DNA of 64,000 nt from contig CM000434.1 of the NCBI GenBank assembly GCA_000165345.1, positions 1,088,001 to 1,152,000 of the forward strand, written 5' to 3'. Position numbers and translations under genes: made by a program. Shown piece after piece: positions 46,599-64,000 of the stretch. The notes beneath the pieces were generated by a model that saw nothing but the letters and a program-made list of their open reading frames with translations, did not search any database and was not told the origin of the DNA. The stretch's first letter is position 1. Each line of letters begins with the position of its first letter.

Positions 46599-48024
<1,426 letters not shown>

Positions 48025-51745: not shown

Positions 51746-54700
51746 TCAAGAGAATGAGCCCTCTTTAAAAATATGTTGAAAATCATTAGAAGCATGGGAA
51801 CTTTTGGTAGAAGGAATGCGATGGCTTTTTTCAACATTATGATGATTATCCAAGTTGAATCTAACCAGACTTTGGTTATTTTTGAGATGATTTGAGCTTT
51901 CAGAATTGTGTTTAGAGAGATTAACTTCACGAGTGGATTTTTTTTCTTGATCAGACATGCTAGTATGTTCTTGAATATCAGAATGGGTTGCATGTGTACC
52001 ATTCGTTTTTTTTACTTTAGAATTTTCAAGATGGCTATCTTTGTAATTATGATTTTTAGTTTCAGATTCTAGTTTTTGGTTTTGAATAGATGTATCAGTG
52101 AACCTATCACTATCTTCAAATTTTATTGAGGATCTATGTCTGGATCCAGGGAGAATACTCGAAGGTTTTGATGATCTGGAACCTTTCGAGGATTTTGGAG
52201 AACGTGTTATCCTTCTATGCCTAACAATGATACCATCTAGGATTTGCCTCCAATACTTGAGTGGTTTCTTTTTTGTATGGTTATGAATAGAGTCCAGCCA
52301 AATGAGTTCACTATCTTTTGTTGGACAAATAAATGTAATTGTAGCTGCATTAGAATAACTTGAATTGTTATTTTTGTCATTAGTGGCGGTGTTAGAGGGA
52401 AGAGAACGACCGTGATCCCTGTATTCAAAACCAAAGTTGTTTGAATTTGATGAGTTATCGTTACTTGTTGGGGATTCTTTTAAGTTGGATGAAATAATGG
52501 AGAATCTAGAGGATACATCGTTAGGATGAGTAGAATCACTCAATTGAATATTATCTGTAAAGCATTTTTCATGTATAGAATATTCATCCAAAAGTAAATC
52601 ATGTGAAAGGTTTTTTTCAAAGATTTCAGCAGAAGTGATATATAGATTGCTCTTGGTTAAAACAACGACTTGTAAGGGATTTGCATTTAATGATGATCCA
52701 ATAACATATAATTTTTCAATTTGAATAACTGGTTCCTTTCCTACTTTAAGGATTGATGGTATCATAAGCTTTTCGAGAGATTTAGTTTTCTTTGCAGAGA
52801 GTTTTCTATCCAGCCTGATTGACATAACATCTGGTAAATCAATTTCTTGTTCTTCATAATACTCTCCTTCATCATCCTCATAAACAATTGTTTGAGTGAG
52901 TTCATGATGATCAGGTTGAGTAGAAATAAGGAGTTTCTCTCTAGTATTATTTGGTACATTTGGCACAACATCAATAAATGCTCGTTCATCATTACTTCCT
53001 GTTGGATTCTTGGTCAATTTAGAGTTGGACATTTTAAAACTATTTCTCTTATTAAGTGATTTGACGCATAATCTAGCGGTTCCAATCTTTTGTATGCAAG
53101 ATTTGACATCTGAATCCTCACCTTTAAGCATTGAAATCCATTTTTCAGCATTGTTAAAATCTATACATGAAAATACCCAAGAATCAATAGTATTTCCTTT
53201 AATTACATTACTAATTTCAAATCCATCTTCAATAGGTTTCCAAGAGTTAGCTGCTGCACCCAGGAATTTGGAAGTCTCAGGTGTAATAGAATTGGAGTGT
53301 ATTGATTGGATTCTGATATTTGATTGACGTATATCTGCAACAAATAACGAATTCCTGGGTTTTTCTATTTTCCCAAGGATAATTGGGATATCAATTCTCT
53401 CTAATCCTGGGGATATAGTAGGTAATGTATATCCAATTTCTCCTTTAACAGAATGAGCTTTATCAATAATATTAGAATTTTCTCTTATAGAAGAATCTTT
53501 GGAATTTTGATCTCCAGTATTACTTGCATCATAAATTACAATAAATGGAAAGCAGTACTTGATGTTAATTTGAGTTAGTTCATAGTCCATCTTAAACACT
53601 TCACTTCCATCCTCTTTTTTAGTATATATACATGCACCCATAAGTGTACCAGTAAAATGTACTTGAGATTCATAGAATTCTTCTGTCTTTAACTTTTCTT
53701 CTTTTGTTCTTCCTATAGCTTCAAGTTTCTTATCTCTACCAATTGTCATAATTTCGATATCTTTTTCAACAATTTCATCAACTTTGATATCTCCATCAGA
53801 AAGTGCTCTCATCAAACCAAAATCATCAAAAATGGACTTTTTGGCTTTATTGGCAGAATTATTAATTTCATTCATCATTTTAAAAGCTGGTAGATTTTTA
53901 TTTATTGTAACATTTTGTTTCTTTGATTGATTATTCTTCCAATCACGTAGTCCCAGCCATTCTTGCAATTTGGGGCCAGTTTGAGCTGCTTTTGATTTTG
54001 CCTTGCTTTTTGTTGGATCAAGCTTGAGTGAACTTTTTGGAGCAATTAAAGGATTTTGAATATTCTTCAGCTTCTCATGCTGAATCATTTTTAGTTTGCT
54101 TGTAAATATTTTATGAACTTTGGCTCTAGCAGCTCGATCACCTTGTTTGCCTTGTGAATAAACTTGAACATTAATTGGTCCAATGTCCTCAACAACAGAA
54201 ATATCTCCTGAGGCAATTTTTGTAATTGCATCAGATAATTTCATTGCATGATCTATATGCTCCTGAGTATATTTATTTGTATCATTTAACACATCATCAA
54301 TGACATCCGGAAATAAATTCCAATATGGAACACTCAAATGTTGAAGTTCCGGAACCAATACTCTATATGAAGAATCTAAAGTTCCCTTAACAACATTACT
54401 AATCTTTACATATCTATTAAGGGAATGGCTTGGAGAGTCTTTGGCTAGCTGAAGTATAATACTAACCTCACCACAAACACTTACGAGTAATTCTTTAAGA
54501 TCAACACAACTATTGCATATATCTTTCCCTCCACGATCAAGTTTGCTCGCTAATAGGTTAAGTTCTGTGAATAGAAGCTGTTCTTCTGATGTTATTGCCC
54601 TTGTTAAGGATTTTTGGGTATCTTCAACATTTAATAGGTTATTTTCAAAGATAGTTTTGCGCTGCTCTGCTAAGGCCGAAATCTCCGAAATCTTTTGCGA

Positions 54701-55222
54701 CATATAAAACGAAGCTGCATTAAGAGATGAGAGAGATTGCAGAAGAATTTGTCTTCCCCTTGGAATAGCTTCAGCCAATGTTAATAACAGATGAGACCCA
54801 TGCCCGTCTATAATTATACATGTTTCACAAATTAACATATAATTACAGCTTGTACAGCAATAAGTCAATTCTTTATTTTTATGTCTTTTACATTGATTCT
54901 TTTGCTTTTCCTGAAGGCTCTTTGCTGTATCTGTTCTAGATATTGACAAATGTTGTACTGATATAATGTCATGGTAACTACCCGCAGAAACATGATTCAT
55001 ATGAGCACATGATGCACAGTAGAAGCACATACATGTGCTACAGTAGAGAGTGCTTTTAGAAATCCAACAGTGCATACATATTCTATCATCCATATTGATC
55101 TTGGATTCTTCACTAGAACTGAACTGTTCAAATAGCTTCCCTATGCTATTATTTATATTCATTGCTCTCGGATCCCGCGTGCTTGCGTTATCCTTATTTG
55201 CTGAATTTTTGTTTTCGAGCAT
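51746..55222 (-). CDS. large hypothetical protein with two N-terminal B-box-type zinc fingers plus coiled-coil, and an S/N-rich C-terminal low-complexity tail
   Basis: ATG at 55222 (MLENKNSANKDNA...). B-box-like Cys/His arrays: CMHCWISKSTLYCSTCMCFYCASCAHMNHVSAGSYH and CKRHKNKELTYCCTSCNYMLICETCIIIDGHGSH. A long helical/coiled region follows (LTRAITSEEQLLFTELNLLASKLDRGG...). The last roughly 300 aa are S/N/K-rich. Confidence 0.55.
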   Translation of the reverse strand: MLENKNSANKDNASTRDPRAMNINNSIGKLFEQFSSSEESKINMDDRICMHCWISKSTLYCSTCMCFYCASCAHMNHVSAGSYHDIISVQHLSISRTDTAKSLQEKQKNQCKRHKNKELTYCCTSCNYMLICETCIIIDGHGSHLLLTLAEAIPRGRQILLQSLSSLNAASFYMSQKISEISALAEQRKTIFENNLLNVEDTQKSLTRAITSEEQLLFTELNLLASKLDRGGKDICNSCVDLKELLVSVCGEVSIILQLAKDSPSHSLNRYVKISNVVKGTLDSSYRVLVPELQHLSVPYWNLFPDVIDDVLNDTNKYTQEHIDHAMKLSDAITKIASGDISVVEDIGPINVQVYSQGKQGDRAARAKVHKIFTSKLKMIQHEKLKNIQNPLIAPKSSLKLDPTKSKAKSKAAQTGPKLQEWLGLRDWKNNQSKKQNVTINKNLPAFKMMNEINNSANKAKKSIFDDFGLMRALSDGDIKVDEIVEKDIEIMTIGRDKKLEAIGRTKEEKLKTEEFYESQVHFTGTLMGACIYTKKEDGSEVFKMDYELTQINIKYCFPFIVIYDASNTGDQNSKDSSIRENSNIIDKAHSVKGEIGYTLPTISPGLERIDIPIILGKIEKPRNSLFVADIRQSNIRIQSIHSNSITPETSKFLGAAANSWKPIEDGFEISNVIKGNTIDSWVFSCIDFNNAEKWISMLKGEDSDVKSCIQKIGTARLCVKSLNKRNSFKMSNSKLTKNPTGSNDERAFIDVVPNVPNNTREKLLISTQPDHHELTQTIVYEDDEGEYYEEQEIDLPDVMSIRLDRKLSAKKTKSLEKLMIPSILKVGKEPVIQIEKLYVIGSSLNANPLQVVVLTKSNLYITSAEIFEKNLSHDLLLDEYSIHEKCFTDNIQLSDSTHPNDVSSRFSIISSNLKESPTSNDNSSNSNNFGFEYRDHGRSLPSNTATNDKNNNSSYSNAATITFICPTKDSELIWLDSIHNHTKKKPLKYWRQILDGIIVRHRRITRSPKSSKGSRSSKPSSILPGSRHRSSIKFEDSDRFTDTSIQNQKLESETKNHNYKDSHLENSKVKKTNGTHATHSDIQEHTSMSDQEKKSTREVNLSKHNSESSNHLKNNQSLVRFNLDNHHNVEKSHRIPSTKSSHASNDFQHIFKEGSFS

Positions 55223-55593: not shown

Positions 55594-56913
55594 TCAGAAA
55601 AATTGGCATTCTGACTCAACCAAACCAATTTTATCAAAAATTGCACATACATATTTTCCTATTGGAAGTCTATTGGATTTGAAAATTGTCCATCTCAAAA
55701 TTCTCAAATTGTGGGGAGCTAGATTATTACATGCATTCGGGTTTCCCGCGTATTCTTCGTGCACTTTTCCAATATTTTCAATAAGTATTCGATTATGAGG
55801 TGAGAGAAACCAATTATAGTCAATTTCTGTTGAAAATGCTCTTGTTGGTGGAGGCATGTAGAATGTTCCAAATCCTTCACAATGAACGCTTTTTGGGTAA
55901 TTGACATCGCATAAAAGCTGATTTGAGCAGTAGCCAAGGACGGTGTTAGTTTGTTTAATAGATTGTTTAGCGAGTGAAGTTACAACTGAAGATATATTTA
56001 GAGCCTTAGATACATACCTAATTAATCTCCCAACTATAAAGACCTTTTCTTTGACTTCTTTATAGTAATTATTAGAAAGTTCTTGAGCTTCAATAAAGTT
56101 ATGGGATCCCAGCAATGATGTAATTGGGTCAATAACAACTAGTTTGAGTCTTTTTAGTTCTTTTTGTTTGATTCTTGGTAGGTCATATAGTAGTTTTTGT
56201 AGTTGAGCACAATCATCTACAGTCACTACACAAATGTTCGAGAGGAGGAGTTCCAAATTATGACTAATTTCTGTTGAATATTGTGAGTTTTGAGTCATTT
56301 CAAGTTCTCCACACAATCTTTGAAAACATTTCTTCATGAAAATTGGATCAAAACTATTGTCGGTTGTTTGAATGTAAATAACTTGATATGGAGAAATTCC
56401 TTCTAACTCTGTTTCAACATTTAAGCTTTCTAATGTTGAGTTAAACATAGTATTTGATATAATCCAGTGAACAACCCTTCTGATAACTGGTAGATCATGC
56501 CCAAAAAGTTCAGTGGTTTCACCTGCAAGAAATCCTCCATCAAAAAAATCCATTAGTATATCGGATCCTAGGTTTATATGCGATCTTAAGTCTCCATTCT
56601 GGGACCAGTTTTCTCTAGCTTCCTCTAATAATTTTTTACCTGTTACAAATCCAGTTTCAATACCAATACCACAAAGGTTAATTTTTTGGTCTTCTGTGAC
56701 GTTATTAGGGAAGCATGTAATTTTTTCTCTACATTTTGAGTAAATCCTTGCTTCTTGAAAGCTTTTTAGCCCTTTTTTTCTTAGGTTATCTAATAAAAGC
56801 TGTGGAATTGTTTTTATATCATTTTTAACGAGCTCATTTTTTGTTTCCTCATCAAGTTCAAGAATGTCAAAGAGATCGTTGTTCTCTTTACTTTTACTGA
56901 AATCGTCAGGCAT
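55594..56913 (-). CDS. RecA/RAD51-family protein with degenerate Walker A (candidate RAD51 paralog)
   Basis: ATG at 56913. HINLGSDILMDFFDGGFLAGETTELFGHDLPVIRR matches the RAD51-family pattern TG...LD.LLGGGI..G.ITE.FGE.G.GKT, but the GKT/S is replaced by DLPVIR. The Walker B-like LKLVVIDPITSLLG and RLIRYVSKALNISSVVTSLAKQ correspond to L..LA.EF.VAVVITNQV. Confidence 0.4.
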   Translation of the reverse strand: MPDDFSKSKENNDLFDILELDEETKNELVKNDIKTIPQLLLDNLRKKGLKSFQEARIYSKCREKITCFPNNVTEDQKINLCGIGIETGFVTGKKLLEEARENWSQNGDLRSHINLGSDILMDFFDGGFLAGETTELFGHDLPVIRRVVHWIISNTMFNSTLESLNVETELEGISPYQVIYIQTTDNSFDPIFMKKCFQRLCGELEMTQNSQYSTEISHNLELLLSNICVVTVDDCAQLQKLLYDLPRIKQKELKRLKLVVIDPITSLLGSHNFIEAQELSNNYYKEVKEKVFIVGRLIRYVSKALNISSVVTSLAKQSIKQTNTVLGYCSNQLLCDVNYPKSVHCEGFGTFYMPPPTRAFSTEIDYNWFLSPHNRILIENIGKVHEEYAGNPNACNNLAPHNLRILRWTIFKSNRLPIGKYVCAIFDKIGLVESECQFF

Positions 56914-57518
56914 TGTAAAAATATCAAGTAATTATTTTGACCAGTTTTAGATACTTTTAATCTACTAGATAAGTCCATACATATATATACATATACATAA
57001 GTTTATTTATTATTTTGATTATTCCAACTTAACTCCTACTTATCCATTAAGTATAGTGGGGGAACGGTATAATTAACCAAAAGTTTATGAAAAAATTACC
57101 CATAAAAAAAAAAAATCAACAATTAACTGGAAGACTCAATTATAGTTTATTTTGATCTTAGAAAGATGCCACCAGATTCATTAATAAATATTTTCTATCC
57201 ACATGAAGTGTCAAATTTGCATGGTATATTTTATGCATGCAAACACCGGTATAGGAATGTGTGCAATAATGTGGACAAATAAATAATAATAGATTAAAGA
57301 ATATAATTAAATATTTAAAGAAAATTTTTCGTTAATAATGACTAATCATGAAAGTTATAATATGAATCTTTAATTGATTTTAAAAAATGCATATTTTCAC
57401 ATAAATTAAAAAGAGGTAATTATTTTTCAATTAGAAAATTCAATAAGCAAGCTCGCAAAAATGTTTAAATAAATCAGTCAAATTTAGCAATTAGTATGAA
57501 AAGTTGGAATTACTAGTA

Positions 57519-62603: not shown

Positions 62604-64000
62604 TCATGAATCTAACCTACCAAATTCATTTTCTTCAACATCTCTTGCTTCTCTTGAAACCCCAATTTCCTTTTCTTCATCATCATCCTTTTCTTCCTCT
62701 AAATCTTTAGAAGATGATTGAGCCTGGTTTACCTTTTCTTTAATTGCAGTGATAGAAACTGGGATTATTGAGGCTGCTCCATCTGATGAAGATACTTGAA
62801 TCTGGCCTTTGAAGGTTTGATCTTCAAAAGTTGAGGGAATTACAGCTTTCCAACCAACTTTGTAAATCATTTGAGCTCTTTGTAAAGGAGGAACAATTGT
62901 CTCACTAAGTTGAAACCAAGGAACCTTTGGATTCTCTGGATACAATTCTATTGAAAATTCTGATGTAGGAAACTTTTCAGTACATGGTATTCCAACTCCT
63001 AAAGATATTAATATAGAAATTAGTTAGTTAATTCTGTTTCTCTATTATTTAAAAAAAAACTTAATATAACTTACCTCTTATCCCATCAATACTTTCCCAT
63101 CCAAGCATTGTTGAAGATGAAATTCTACTAATTGCCAAACTTCCTTTCTCTGAGGATGAAATTCCTCTAGAATCTTCTAAATCCTCCCAGGGAATACTCA
63201 AATAATTGAATTTCACTGATCCATTACTGTTCAACACACATTGAAATGTTGCTGATTTTGAATTGTATTGTTCAGATTTTAGAAATACATTTCTCCATTC
63301 TATTACAAACTCCCACCTCCTTTTCTTCCCCTCTTCCTTTTCTTCTCCATCATCCTCTTCTTCATACTCTAGTCTTTCCTCTCTTCTATATCTACTACCA
63401 ACTCCACTACCAAATCCTCCTCCAAAATCTTCCTCATCTTCTTCAGTCTTTAAGAATGTCACAATTTTCGTATTCTCTCTTCTTCCTCTTGTTGTGAAAT
63501 CTGTCCATAAAGGGGCTAAAATACCATGAGGAGGAGCATATGAGGGTAATGCTGGTACAAATGCTTCACTATATATTGGACTGAAAGAAATAAATCCATT
63601 TACTGAGACATAAATCTCGTCAATCTTCTCCCCAAGAAAGTACCAACTTCTTGGAAGATTTACTTTTTGCACTCCATCATCTGAGTTAGATAAGTCTGTG
63701 AGAATTGTTTCTTGATTAATTCCAATATTTACCCAATCAAACTTTACATTAGCCTTGGGTAAAATCACATCATCTAAAGATACATATAACTTATTTTTAC
63801 CTTCTTCAGAATCCATTCCTTCTAATCTATGAATAATCCTCTTCTTAGAAGGAAGATTCTCTCCAGAAAGAACCATCTTAAAGTAAGATTTTGATGGAGA
63901 TAGATCTTTAATAGAAGTATTACTTCTTGAATAGTCTTTTCTTTTACTTTCTCTTTCAAATCCTGTTGAACTTGGATCTCTTAAAGACTTAAATCTTAAG
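62604..64000 (-). CDS. hypothetical protein with acidic C-terminus; 2 or more exons; 5' end probably beyond the window end
   Basis: Model join(complement(63075..64000), complement(62604..62998)). The minus-strand frame is open from the window end (...FERESKRKDYSRSNTSIKDLSPSKSYFK MVLSGENLPSKK...). A possible internal ATG is at 63876. Donor GTAAGT is at plus 63069-63074 and acceptor tctttAG at plus 62999-63000. Exon 2 is GVGIPCTEKFPTSEFSIELYPENPKVPWFQ...DLEEEKDDDEEKE. No domain recognised. Confidence 0.45.

What the first reader, a model, noticed from the sequence alone, without database searches (positions are those of the whole stretch)
55594..56913. RAD51-family fold with an ablated Walker A P-loop
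The protein keeps the TG..LD.LLGGG...G.ITE.FG lead-in and the Walker B / L2-region motifs of RAD51 and RadA paralogs. At the P-loop position GxxGxGK[TS] is replaced by FGHDLPVIRR. This implies a non-catalytic structural paralog, as in Csm2/Psy3/XRCC2-like or Elongator Elp4/6 RecA folds. Apicomplexan RAD51 paralogs are poorly catalogued.
Basis: partly seen in the sequence, partly recalled or inferred. Interest (0 to 1): 0.5.

Follow-up and report, generated by a model that had tools for sequence, protein, structure and literature searches.

The report
Cryptosporidium RAD51D-like paralogue without P-loop
This Cryptosporidium parvum gene (cgd6_4800) encodes a full-length relative of the human DNA-repair protein RAD51D that has lost its ATP-binding loop across the whole genus, so it most likely serves as a nucleotide-free scaffold helping RAD51 assemble; the gene was already listed as a RAD51 paralogue in 2011, which makes this a modest refinement.

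Summary
ORF 55594-56913 (-) encodes the 439-aa C. parvum protein cgd6_4800. It has a RAD51-type lead-in (INLGSDILMDFFDGGFLAGETTELFG) and Walker B (LKLVVID). GHDLPVIRR sits where GxxxxGK[ST] should be. That replacement is present in all 12 Cryptosporidium orthologues, including syntenic C. muris, and is under strong purifying selection, so it is not a sequencing error or pseudogene.

The protein keeps the N-terminal domain, an FxxG linker motif and the RAD51D "lysine finger" (K412). It lacks the catalytic Glu, as human RAD51D does.

Best reading: a nucleotide-free RAD51D-like scaffold in a RAD51-paralogue complex.

Dobson et al. 2011 already listed cgd6_4800 as a RAD51 paralogue that was "not easily assigned". 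Novelty and interest are therefore modest.

The parts
55594..56913 (-). Complete single-exon gene cgd6_4800 (439 aa plus stop), a RAD51D-like RAD51 paralogue.
   Evidence: ORF list. Exact match to XP_627807.1. Syntenic orthologues in C. muris, C. ubiquitum and C. meleagridis. dN/dS about 0.14.
56716..56874 (-). N-terminal helical domain, residues 14-66 (LFDILELDEETKNELVKNDIKTIPQLLLDNLRKKGLKSFQEARIYSKCREKIT), equivalent to the RAD51D/RAD51 NTD.
   Evidence: hhalign aligns residues 19-69 with RAD51D 11-64, sharing L.EE, IKT and FP. The AF2 model has helices 22-30, 36-46 and 51-66. Residues 35-49 are the best-conserved stretch between C. parvum and C. muris.
56638..56652 (-). Linker motif GFVTG (residues 88-92), an FxxG at the position of the RAD51 FxxA (GFTTA) polymerisation motif.
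   Evidence: MAFFT alignments A5 and A7 place it under RAD51 'GFTTA'. G88, F89 and G92 are invariant in the genus. Its function is inferred.
56500..56577 (-). RAD51-type lead-in and strand beta1, residues 113-138 (INLGSDILMDFFDGGFLAGETTELFG).
   Evidence: Aligned to RAD51, RAD51D and Rad57 in HMMER and hhalign outputs. G116, G126, G127, G131 and G138 are invariant. Strand 133-138 in the model.
56476..56502 (-). Degenerate Walker A position, residues 138-146 (GHDLPVIRR). V143, I144 and R145 replace the G, K and T of GxxxxGK[ST].
   Evidence: Conserved across the genus: identity 0.89 against a protein mean of 0.73. For residues 113-159, dN is 0.028 and dS 0.657. The model starts the helix at residue 141, with pLDDT 88-93.
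56347..56385 (-). Strand beta2 and the following loop, residues 177-189 (QVIYIQTTDNSFD), corresponding to RAD51 'AMYIDTEGTFRP'. The catalytic Glu position is T184.
   Evidence: Alignments. Y180, Q182, T183 and T184 are invariant. Human RAD51D and XRCC2 also lack the catalytic Glu (PMC7614784).
56128..56148 (-). Walker B, residues 256-262 (LKLVVID), with D262 invariant.
   Evidence: Aligned to RAD51D VKVVVVD206 and Rad57 IKLVIID. Invariant in every alignment.
55828..55962 (-). Enlarged L2-like insertion, residues 318-362, with low model confidence. It contains a conserved PPP (354-356).
   Evidence: No counterpart in RAD51D in hhalign. pLDDT below 50 for 318-333. Conservation 0.68.
55777..55812 (-). 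Post-L2 strand WFLSPHNRILIE (residues 368-379), matching RAD51D SWSFVPSTRILLD. The Trp is typical of the RAD51 paralogues.
   Evidence: HMMER and hhalign alignments. MAFFT A5. W368, P372, H373 and N374 are invariant.
55651..55683 (-). FKSNRLPIGKY (residues 411-421). K412 aligns with the human RAD51D lysine finger K297 (LAKSSRQPTGF).
   Evidence: hhalign and MAFFT A5. K412, S413, R415, G419, K420 and Y421 are invariant. The role of K297 is taken from PMC7614784. The function here is inferred.

Best explanation
The gene encodes the Cryptosporidium RAD51 paralogue cgd6_4800. It is a full-length RAD51D-like protein with an N-terminal helical domain, a linker and a RecA-type core. Its own nucleotide site has been abolished. 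The Walker A Gly, Lys and Thr are Val, Ile and Arg, and there is no catalytic Glu. The model suggests the P-loop is replaced by an N-terminally extended helix. The fold and that replaced segment are both under strong purifying selection.

Human RAD51D is already a non-hydrolysing subunit that holds a permanently bound 'structural' ATP. The Cryptosporidium protein appears to have gone one step further and dispensed with the nucleotide.

It keeps the features that a RAD51-family protomer donates to its neighbour. These are an FxxG linker motif at the position of the RAD51 FxxA, and the lysine finger (K412 = RAD51D K297) that reaches into the next subunit's ATP site.

The most likely function is a nucleotide-free scaffold in a small RAD51-paralogue complex. 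The probable partner is the RAD51C/XRCC3-like cgd2_4070. Such a complex would nucleate, stabilise or cap RAD51 (cgd5_410) and DMC1 (cgd7_1690) filaments in repair and meiosis.

Shown here: family, fold, closest relative, motif losses and retentions, and selection. Inferred: lack of nucleotide binding, partners, and role in filament assembly.
For: Family:
- The profile of the orthologues, run against 1.84e9 proteins, finds only Cryptosporidium proteins plus one Pfam-Rad51 protein. hhalign to that protein gives 94.7% probability.
- The PDB profile search returns Rad57 (E 0.0045), RAD51D (0.012), RAD51C (0.044) and RadA as the first nine hits.

RAD51D-likeness:
- hhalign of the orthologue alignment against six human family members gives RAD51D 96.1% (E 3.5e-9, score 70, residues 19-426 against 11-311). 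The others are RAD51 44%, RAD51C 30%, RAD51B 3%, XRCC3 1% and XRCC2 0.2%.
- The typed human RAD51D, RAD51C, RAD51B and XRCC3 sequences were verified against PDB chains.
- HMMER ranks RAD51D first as well.
- An NJ bootstrap puts RAD51D as sole sister in 123 of 200 replicates.

Fold:
- AF2 model with pLDDT 67.8, pTM 0.67 and core 80-93. No RAD51D sequence was in its MSA.
- Foldseek top hit is 8faz_D, human RAD51D, at E 3.8e-15.

Motifs.

Conservation and selection:
- Genus-wide invariance of I144, R145, R146, H149, W150, D262 and K412.
- Identity in the ex-P-loop segment is 0.89 against a mean of 0.73.
- dN/dS is about 0.14 overall, and about 0.04 for residues 113-159.
- There is a syntenic orthologue in C. 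muris.

Precedent:
- Human RAD51D and XRCC2 bind non-exchangeable ATP and lack the catalytic Glu. RAD51D K297 is a lysine finger into the XRCC2 site (PMC7614784).
- RAD51D-related Psy3 and Rdl1 have only Walker B (PMC3084681).
- cgd6_4800 is listed as a RAD51 paralogue (PMC3170485).
Against: - A single-sequence Pfam scan gives no Rad51 hit.
- All sequence-level hits are weak: HMMER E-values of 1e-2 to 1e-4.
- The best PDB HMMER hit was Rad57, not RAD51D.
- The one outside relative, P0021, scores better to RAD51B than to RAD51D.
- In human RAD51D, Walker A K113 coordinates the bound ATP (PMC7614784), so an orthologue without it is unexpected.
- No XRCC2-like partner is known in Cryptosporidium (Dobson 2011 found only two paralogues). 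The recipient of K412 is therefore unidentified.
- No experimental data on nucleotide binding, interactions or phenotype exist.
- The model's mean confidence is moderate, and its MSA was hand-selected so that MAFFT aligned the post-L2 strand correctly.
Confidence: 0.62

Rival explanations
1. It is a RAD51 paralogue but not a RAD51D orthologue. On this view it is a fast-evolving, lineage-specific derivative of another paralogue (RAD51B-, RAD51C- or XRCC3/Rad57-like), and its resemblance to RAD51D is partial or due to long-branch effects. The function would still be a non-catalytic accessory subunit.
Confidence: 0.27
2. It still binds or hydrolyses nucleotide through a non-canonical site, for example with R145/R146 substituting for the Walker Lys. 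On this view it is a catalytic or ATP-regulated subunit.
For: Walker B D262 and Q317 are retained and invariant, and two invariant arginines sit in the former P-loop. The segment is highly constrained.
Against: All three defining Walker A residues (G, K, T/S) are replaced by V, I and R, and the Gly-rich loop is gone. The model extends the helix into the loop. There is no catalytic Glu. Even intact human RAD51D does not turn over ATP.
Confidence: 0.06
3. It is a RecA-fold scaffold of a different system unrelated to recombination, such as Elongator Elp4/5/6 or a KaiC/DnaB-like assembly.
Confidence: 0.03
4. It is a decaying pseudogene or an annotation or sequencing artefact.
For: Loss of the key catalytic motif. 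No Pfam hit.
Against: There are intact syntenic ORFs of 429-464 aa in 12 species. dN/dS is about 0.14, and the ex-P-loop region is even more constrained.
Confidence: 0.01

Closest known systems
Human RAD51D (RAD51L3; PDB 8faz_D, 9q25_D), a subunit of BCDX2 and of XRCC3-RAD51C-RAD51D-XRCC2
   Same: - The architecture is shared: helical NTD, linker and RecA core.
- Shared motifs include IKT and FP in the NTD, SW..P..RIL(L/I)(D/E), and the KS.R.P.G lysine-finger motif (K297 = K412).
- Walker B Asp is shared.
- Both lack the catalytic Glu. Human RAD51D is itself non-hydrolysing.
   Different: - Human RAD51D has an intact Walker A (GPGSGKT) and holds non-exchangeable ATP through K113 and T114. The Cryptosporidium protein has V143, I144 and R145 there.
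- The Cryptosporidium protein is 111 aa longer. Its insertions lie in the linker (70-87), after helix 1 (160-176), at 203-216, in L2 (318-362) and at 381-403.
- Sequence identity is only about 16-24%.
Shu-complex RAD51 paralogues Psy3/Csm2 (S. cerevisiae) and Rdl1 (S. pombe)
   Same: They are RAD51-paralogue RecA folds without a functional Walker A that act as structural, non-ATPase promoters of Rad51 filaments. Psy3 and Rdl1 are described as RAD51D-related with Walker B only (PMC3084681; PMC6180034).
Human XRCC2 and yeast Rad55/Rad57, C. elegans RFS-1/RIP-1
   Same: They are accessory RAD51 paralogues that cap or stabilise filaments.
   Different: XRCC2 lacks the NTD and has an intact, ATP-occupied Walker A. 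hhalign to XRCC2 and XRCC3 gives 1% or less.
Elongator Elp4/Elp5/Elp6
   Same: RecA-like folds lacking P-loops that form a structural ring.

Membership tests
RAD51/RadA recombinase-paralogue family (Pfam PF08423 Rad51; RecA fold) | RecA-type alpha/beta ATPase-core fold | tested here: met
RAD51/RadA recombinase-paralogue family (Pfam PF08423 Rad51; RecA fold) | Significant sequence or profile match to family members | tested here: met
   The single sequence against Pfam gives no hit. The orthologue profile does better. Its only outside hit in 1.84e9 proteins is a Rad51-family protein at E 5.4e-4. PDB profile hits are Rad57 at 0.0045, RAD51D at 0.012 and RAD51C at 0.044. hhalign gives 96% to RAD51D. 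The feature is met at profile level only.
RAD51/RadA recombinase-paralogue family (Pfam PF08423 Rad51; RecA fold) | Walker A P-loop GxxxxGK[ST] | tested here: not met
   Residues 138-146 are GHDLPVIRR, with V143, I144 and R145 at the G, K and T positions. The same type of replacement is present in all 12 orthologues.
RAD51/RadA recombinase-paralogue family (Pfam PF08423 Rad51; RecA fold) | Walker B (hydrophobic strand ending in Asp) | tested here: met
   LKLVVID262. The Asp is invariant in every alignment, including those with RAD51s.
RAD51D orthologous group | Closest to RAD51D among RAD51-family subgroups | tested here: met
RAD51D orthologous group | N-terminal helical domain plus linker preceding the core | tested here: met
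   hhalign aligns residues 19-69 to RAD51D 11-64. The model has helices 22-30, 36-46 and 51-66.
RAD51D orthologous group | ATP bound via Walker A K113/T114 (structural, non-exchangeable ATP) | tested here: not met
   K113->I144 and T114->R145. The role of these residues is taken from PMC7614784. Actual nucleotide binding cannot be tested with these tools.
RAD51D orthologous group | No catalytic Glu after strand beta2, and a lysine finger (K297) in the C-terminal KS.R.P.G motif | tested here: met
   T184 sits at the Glu position. K412 aligns with K297 and is invariant. The human features are from PMC7614784.
RAD51D orthologous group | Complex with RAD51C and XRCC2 | not testable with these tools
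   The partner genes are outside the window (cgd2_4070 per PMC3170485). No XRCC2-like gene is known in Cryptosporidium.
Shu-complex type paralogues (Psy3/Csm2/Shu1/Rdl1) | Truncated RecA core without an NTD, lacking Walker A, partnered with a SWIM protein | tested here: not met
Elongator Elp4/5/6 | Closest structural and sequence similarity to Elp4/5/6 RecA-like subunits | tested here: not met

The most novel reading that the evidence does not exclude
Cryptosporidium runs homologous recombination with a minimal two-paralogue mediator. In it, a RAD51D orthologue has replaced its 'structural ATP' with protein side chains: the invariant V-I-R-R..H-W segment and an extended helix. It still donates its linker and lysine finger to a partner's ATP site. 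This would be a natural experiment showing that nucleotide occupancy of RAD51D is dispensable for paralogue-complex assembly. The re-purposed, strongly constrained ex-P-loop could form a new interface, for example accepting the partner's lysine finger through D140.
Probability: 0.3. Interest if true: 0.5.

Novelty: new member of a known kind. Interest (0 to 1): 0.3.

Why it matters
RAD51 paralogue complexes are central to repair and meiosis, and their structures have only recently been solved. In the human complexes RAD51D holds a permanently bound, non-hydrolysed ATP whose role is assumed to be structural.

A full-length RAD51D-like protein that has lost the P-loop under strong purifying selection, while keeping the trans-acting lysine finger and linker motif, would be a natural test of that idea. 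It would also define a minimal paralogue set (cgd2_4070 plus cgd6_4800) in a parasite whose sexual cycle and meiotic recombination are obligatory for transmission.

Practically, the analysis assigns a subfamily to a gene that databases call 'hypothetical' or 'P-loop NTPase' and that a 2011 survey could not place. It is an incremental annotation and evolution result, not a new kind of system.

Tried and rejected
- Single-sequence searches against Pfam and PDB gave nothing relevant.
- The first AlphaFold run, on 10 close orthologues, was unusable at pLDDT 42.
- A word-indexed homologue search with an alignment that included the distant hit P0021 found nothing new.
- A search with P0021 alone returned mostly RAD51 proper, so it gave no paralogue-specific set.
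- MSAs with many RAD51 sequences made MAFFT misalign the post-L2 strand. A 27-sequence subset that preserved the correct register was chosen greedily.
- The afdb50 fold library was not available. Structural orthologues in other apicomplexans could therefore not be sought.
- I considered that H373 might be the equivalent of the trans-acting RAD51 His294. I rejected this after counting the register: L370 aligns there, and P372 matches the RAD51D Pro.
- An E2F-like TTTGGCGC motif was looked for upstream of the gene and is absent there.
- The Elongator, Shu-type, pseudogene and sequencing-error readings were all rejected.

Full report
**What is there.** The finding's coordinates are exact. A 439-codon ORF runs from 56913 down to 55594 on the minus strand. 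Its product is identical to C. parvum Iowa II XP_627807.1/EAK90063.1, i.e. gene cgd6_4800 on chromosome 6. [quoted passage not shown] The C. canis orthologue carries an automatic UniRef name, 'Rad51-like C-terminal domain-containing protein'.

The sequence reads INLGSDILMDFFDGGFLAGETTELFG-HDLPVIRR. This is a RAD51-type lead-in and strand beta1, followed by GHDLPVIRR where GxxxxGK[ST] should be. Walker B is present as LKLVVID262.

**Not an error, not a relic.** Orthologues were found only in Cryptosporidium. Nine came from the 5.8-billion-protein collection. Two more divergent ones came from the exhaustive HMMER scan of 1.84 billion representatives. These include the C. muris RN66 protein, which is 36% identical. 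All have intact ORFs of 429-464 aa.

All orthologues carry the same type of replacement, FG[HQP][DN][LI]x[VAI]IRR. I144, R145, R146, H149 and W150 are invariant.

The C. muris, C. ubiquitum and C. meleagridis genes are syntenic. On one side they have the same B-box zinc-finger neighbour. In C. muris and C. ubiquitum, where wider flanks were fetched, they have a DEAD-box helicase and a subtilase on the other.

Nei-Gojobori dN/dS is about 0.14 for C. parvum against C. meleagridis and against C. ubiquitum. For residues 113-159, around the former P-loop, dN is 0.028 and dS is 0.657. Column identity in the ex-P-loop is 0.89 against a protein mean of 0.73. The replaced segment is therefore itself under constraint.

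**Which family.** The single sequence hits nothing relevant in Pfam or PDB. A profile of the orthologues gives a consistent answer:
- Across 1.84 billion proteins, the only non-Cryptosporidium hit is P0021 (E 5.4e-4). P0021 is an environmental eukaryotic protein that matches Pfam Rad51 at 53 bits and has an intact GKT. hhalign to it gives 94.7% probability.
- Against all PDB sequences the first nine hits are Rad57 (E 0.0045), RAD51D (0.012), RAD51C (0.044) and RadA, and human RAD51 follows at E above 1. The RAD51D match is collinear over the NTD, lead-in, Walker B and post-L2 strand.
- No Elongator, Shu-complex or KaiC chain appeared at E <= 10.

**Which subfamily.** I verified RAD51D as 328/328 identical to 8faz_D. 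RAD51C, RAD51B and XRCC3 gave full-length matches at 2.2 bits per residue. XRCC2 and RAD51 were not verified.

| Human protein | hhalign probability | Other hhalign values |
|---|---|---|
| RAD51D | 96.1% | E 3.5e-9, score 70, residues 19-426 against 11-311 |
| RAD51 | 44% | score 37.7 |
| RAD51C | 30% | score 35.5 |
| RAD51B | 3% | score 25.9 |
| XRCC3 | 1% | score 21.4 |
| XRCC2 | 0.2% | score 15.3 |

HMMER ranks RAD51D first as well, at 17.3 bits against 10.5 or less. Shared RAD51D-type motifs are visible by eye:
- L.EE....L....IKT...L in the NTD.
- (C/A)FP.N at the end of the NTD.
- (N/S)W...P..RIL(I/L)(E/D) after L2.
- KS.R.P.G near the C terminus.

A crude NJ bootstrap on 287 columns makes human RAD51D the sole sister of the Cryptosporidium clade in 123 of 200 replicates. 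This is only moderate support, because the distances are saturated and there is one RAD51D representative.

**Structure.** The first AlphaFold run, on ten close orthologues, failed at pLDDT 42. I therefore chose a 27-sequence set that kept the post-L2 strand in register. It contained no RAD51D.

The second model has pLDDT 67.8 and pTM 0.67, with the core at 80-93. The fold-search results are:

| Search | Target | Score |
|---|---|---|
| Foldseek, PDB | 8faz_D, human RAD51D (top hit) | E 3.8e-15 |

After the top Foldseek hit come other RAD51D, RAD51C, XRCC3, RadA, RAD51 and DMC1 chains.

In the model, strand 133-138 is followed by a helix that starts at residue 141 (pLDDT 88-93). The Gly-rich phosphate-binding loop is effectively replaced by an N-terminally extended helix.

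**Anatomy in functional terms.** Greenhough et al. 2023 (PMC7614784) showed several things about the human complex:
- RAD51D and XRCC2 hold non-exchangeable ATP.
- Only RAD51, RAD51B and RAD51C keep the catalytic Glu.
- RAD51D binds ATP through K113, T114 and D206.
- Lysine fingers act in trans: RAD51C K308 reaches into the RAD51D site, and RAD51D K297 reaches into the XRCC2 site.

Mapping these residues through the alignments gives:
- G112, K113 and T114 become V143, I144 and R145, so the site is lost.
- D206 becomes D262, which is kept and invariant.
- The catalytic-Glu position is T184. It is absent here, as in human RAD51D.
- K297 becomes K412, which is kept and invariant.

The linker also carries an invariant GFVTG under RAD51's GFTTA (FxxA) polymerisation motif. 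The order of subunit contacts in the capped filament structures (PMC7618403) suggests that each protomer donates its linker and lysine finger to the next subunit.

So the Cryptosporidium protein has lost what it would use to hold its own nucleotide. It has kept what it would give to a neighbour.

**Mechanism proposed.** It is a nucleotide-free RAD51D-like scaffold subunit of a small RAD51-paralogue complex. The complex most likely includes the RAD51C/XRCC3-like cgd2_4070 and supports RAD51 and DMC1 filament assembly or capping. The family, fold, motif pattern and selection are shown here. The absence of nucleotide binding, the partners and the cellular role are inferred.

**Rivals:**
- A RAD51 paralogue not orthologous to RAD51D (about 0.27).
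- Non-canonical nucleotide binding (about 0.06).
- A non-recombination RecA scaffold (about 0.03).
- A pseudogene or artefact (about 0.01).

**What is already known.** Dobson et al. 2011 (PMC3170485) list cgd6_4800 as C. parvum 'RAD51-4' in their supplement, with names explicitly not implying orthology. It appears beside cgd2_4070, RAD51 (cgd5_410) and DMC1 (cgd7_1690). [quoted passage not shown]

They do not mention the missing Walker A. No other paper in the library mentions the gene beyond an SNV table.

Walker-A-less RAD51 paralogues are well known (Psy3, Csm2, Shu1, Rdl1, RIP-1). Psy3 and Rdl1 are considered RAD51D-related (PMC3084681 and PMC6180034).

The increment here is threefold:
- The RAD51D assignment.
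- The documented, conserved P-loop ablation in a full-length protein that retains its NTD.
- The retained trans-acting features.

**Verdict.** It is a new member of a known kind (non-ATP-binding RAD51 paralogues). Interest is about 0.3.

Noticed in passing
window 694, 3742, 35601(-), 49614, 51200, 51644: The E2F-like octamer TTTGGCGC occurs 6 times against 0.76 expected from shuffles. None lies in the 5' intergenic region of cgd6_4800. Three sit in intergenic stretches around 49.6-51.7 kb.
   Followed up: partly
window 57234-57241, within the AT-rich (GC 0.23) stretch 57000-57500: A TGCATGCA palindrome lies about 320 bp upstream of the cgd6_4800 start codon. To my recollection (not checked here), GCATGC-type elements are common apicomplexan promoter motifs. 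Significance not tested.
   Followed up: no
window 51746-55222 (-): The 1158-aa neighbour (cgd6_4790) has only a weak B-box zinc-finger match and is otherwise uncharacterised. It is the conserved downstream neighbour of the RAD51D-like gene in C. muris, C. ubiquitum and C. meleagridis.
   Followed up: partly
window 63061-63876 (-): This ORF has a Nidogen-like (NIDO) domain. In C. ubiquitum the adjacent subtilase product carries Peptidase_S8 plus NIDO. The ORF is therefore probably part of the subtilase gene cgd6_4840 rather than a separate gene.
   Followed up: partly
window 46819-48024 (+): A tubulin ORF begins at position 30 of the Pfam Tubulin profile. This suggests a short separate 5' exon (an intron), which is unusual in the intron-poor Cryptosporidium genome.
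   Followed up: no
window about 41.8-64 kb (cgd6_4740 to cgd6_4850): A published comparison of C. parvum IId isolates lists 9 genes between cgd6_4740 and cgd6_4850, including cgd6_4800 with 5 SNVs, among its 13 SNV-rich genes (PMC9436107). This is possibly an introgressed or recombinant segment.
   Followed up: no
P0021 (JGI metagenome contig, 4.6 kb): This is the only non-Cryptosporidium relative found. It is an orphan eukaryotic RAD51B/D-like protein with an intact GKT and long N/S/G-rich low-complexity inserts. It has no close relatives of its own in the 5.8-billion-protein collection. Its source organism is unknown.
   Followed up: partly
window 55828-55962 (-), residues 318-362: The enlarged L2-like insertion contains an invariant PPP (354-356) and conserved flanks in the intestinal-clade species. 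It has no counterpart in RAD51D and its function is unknown.
   Followed up: no
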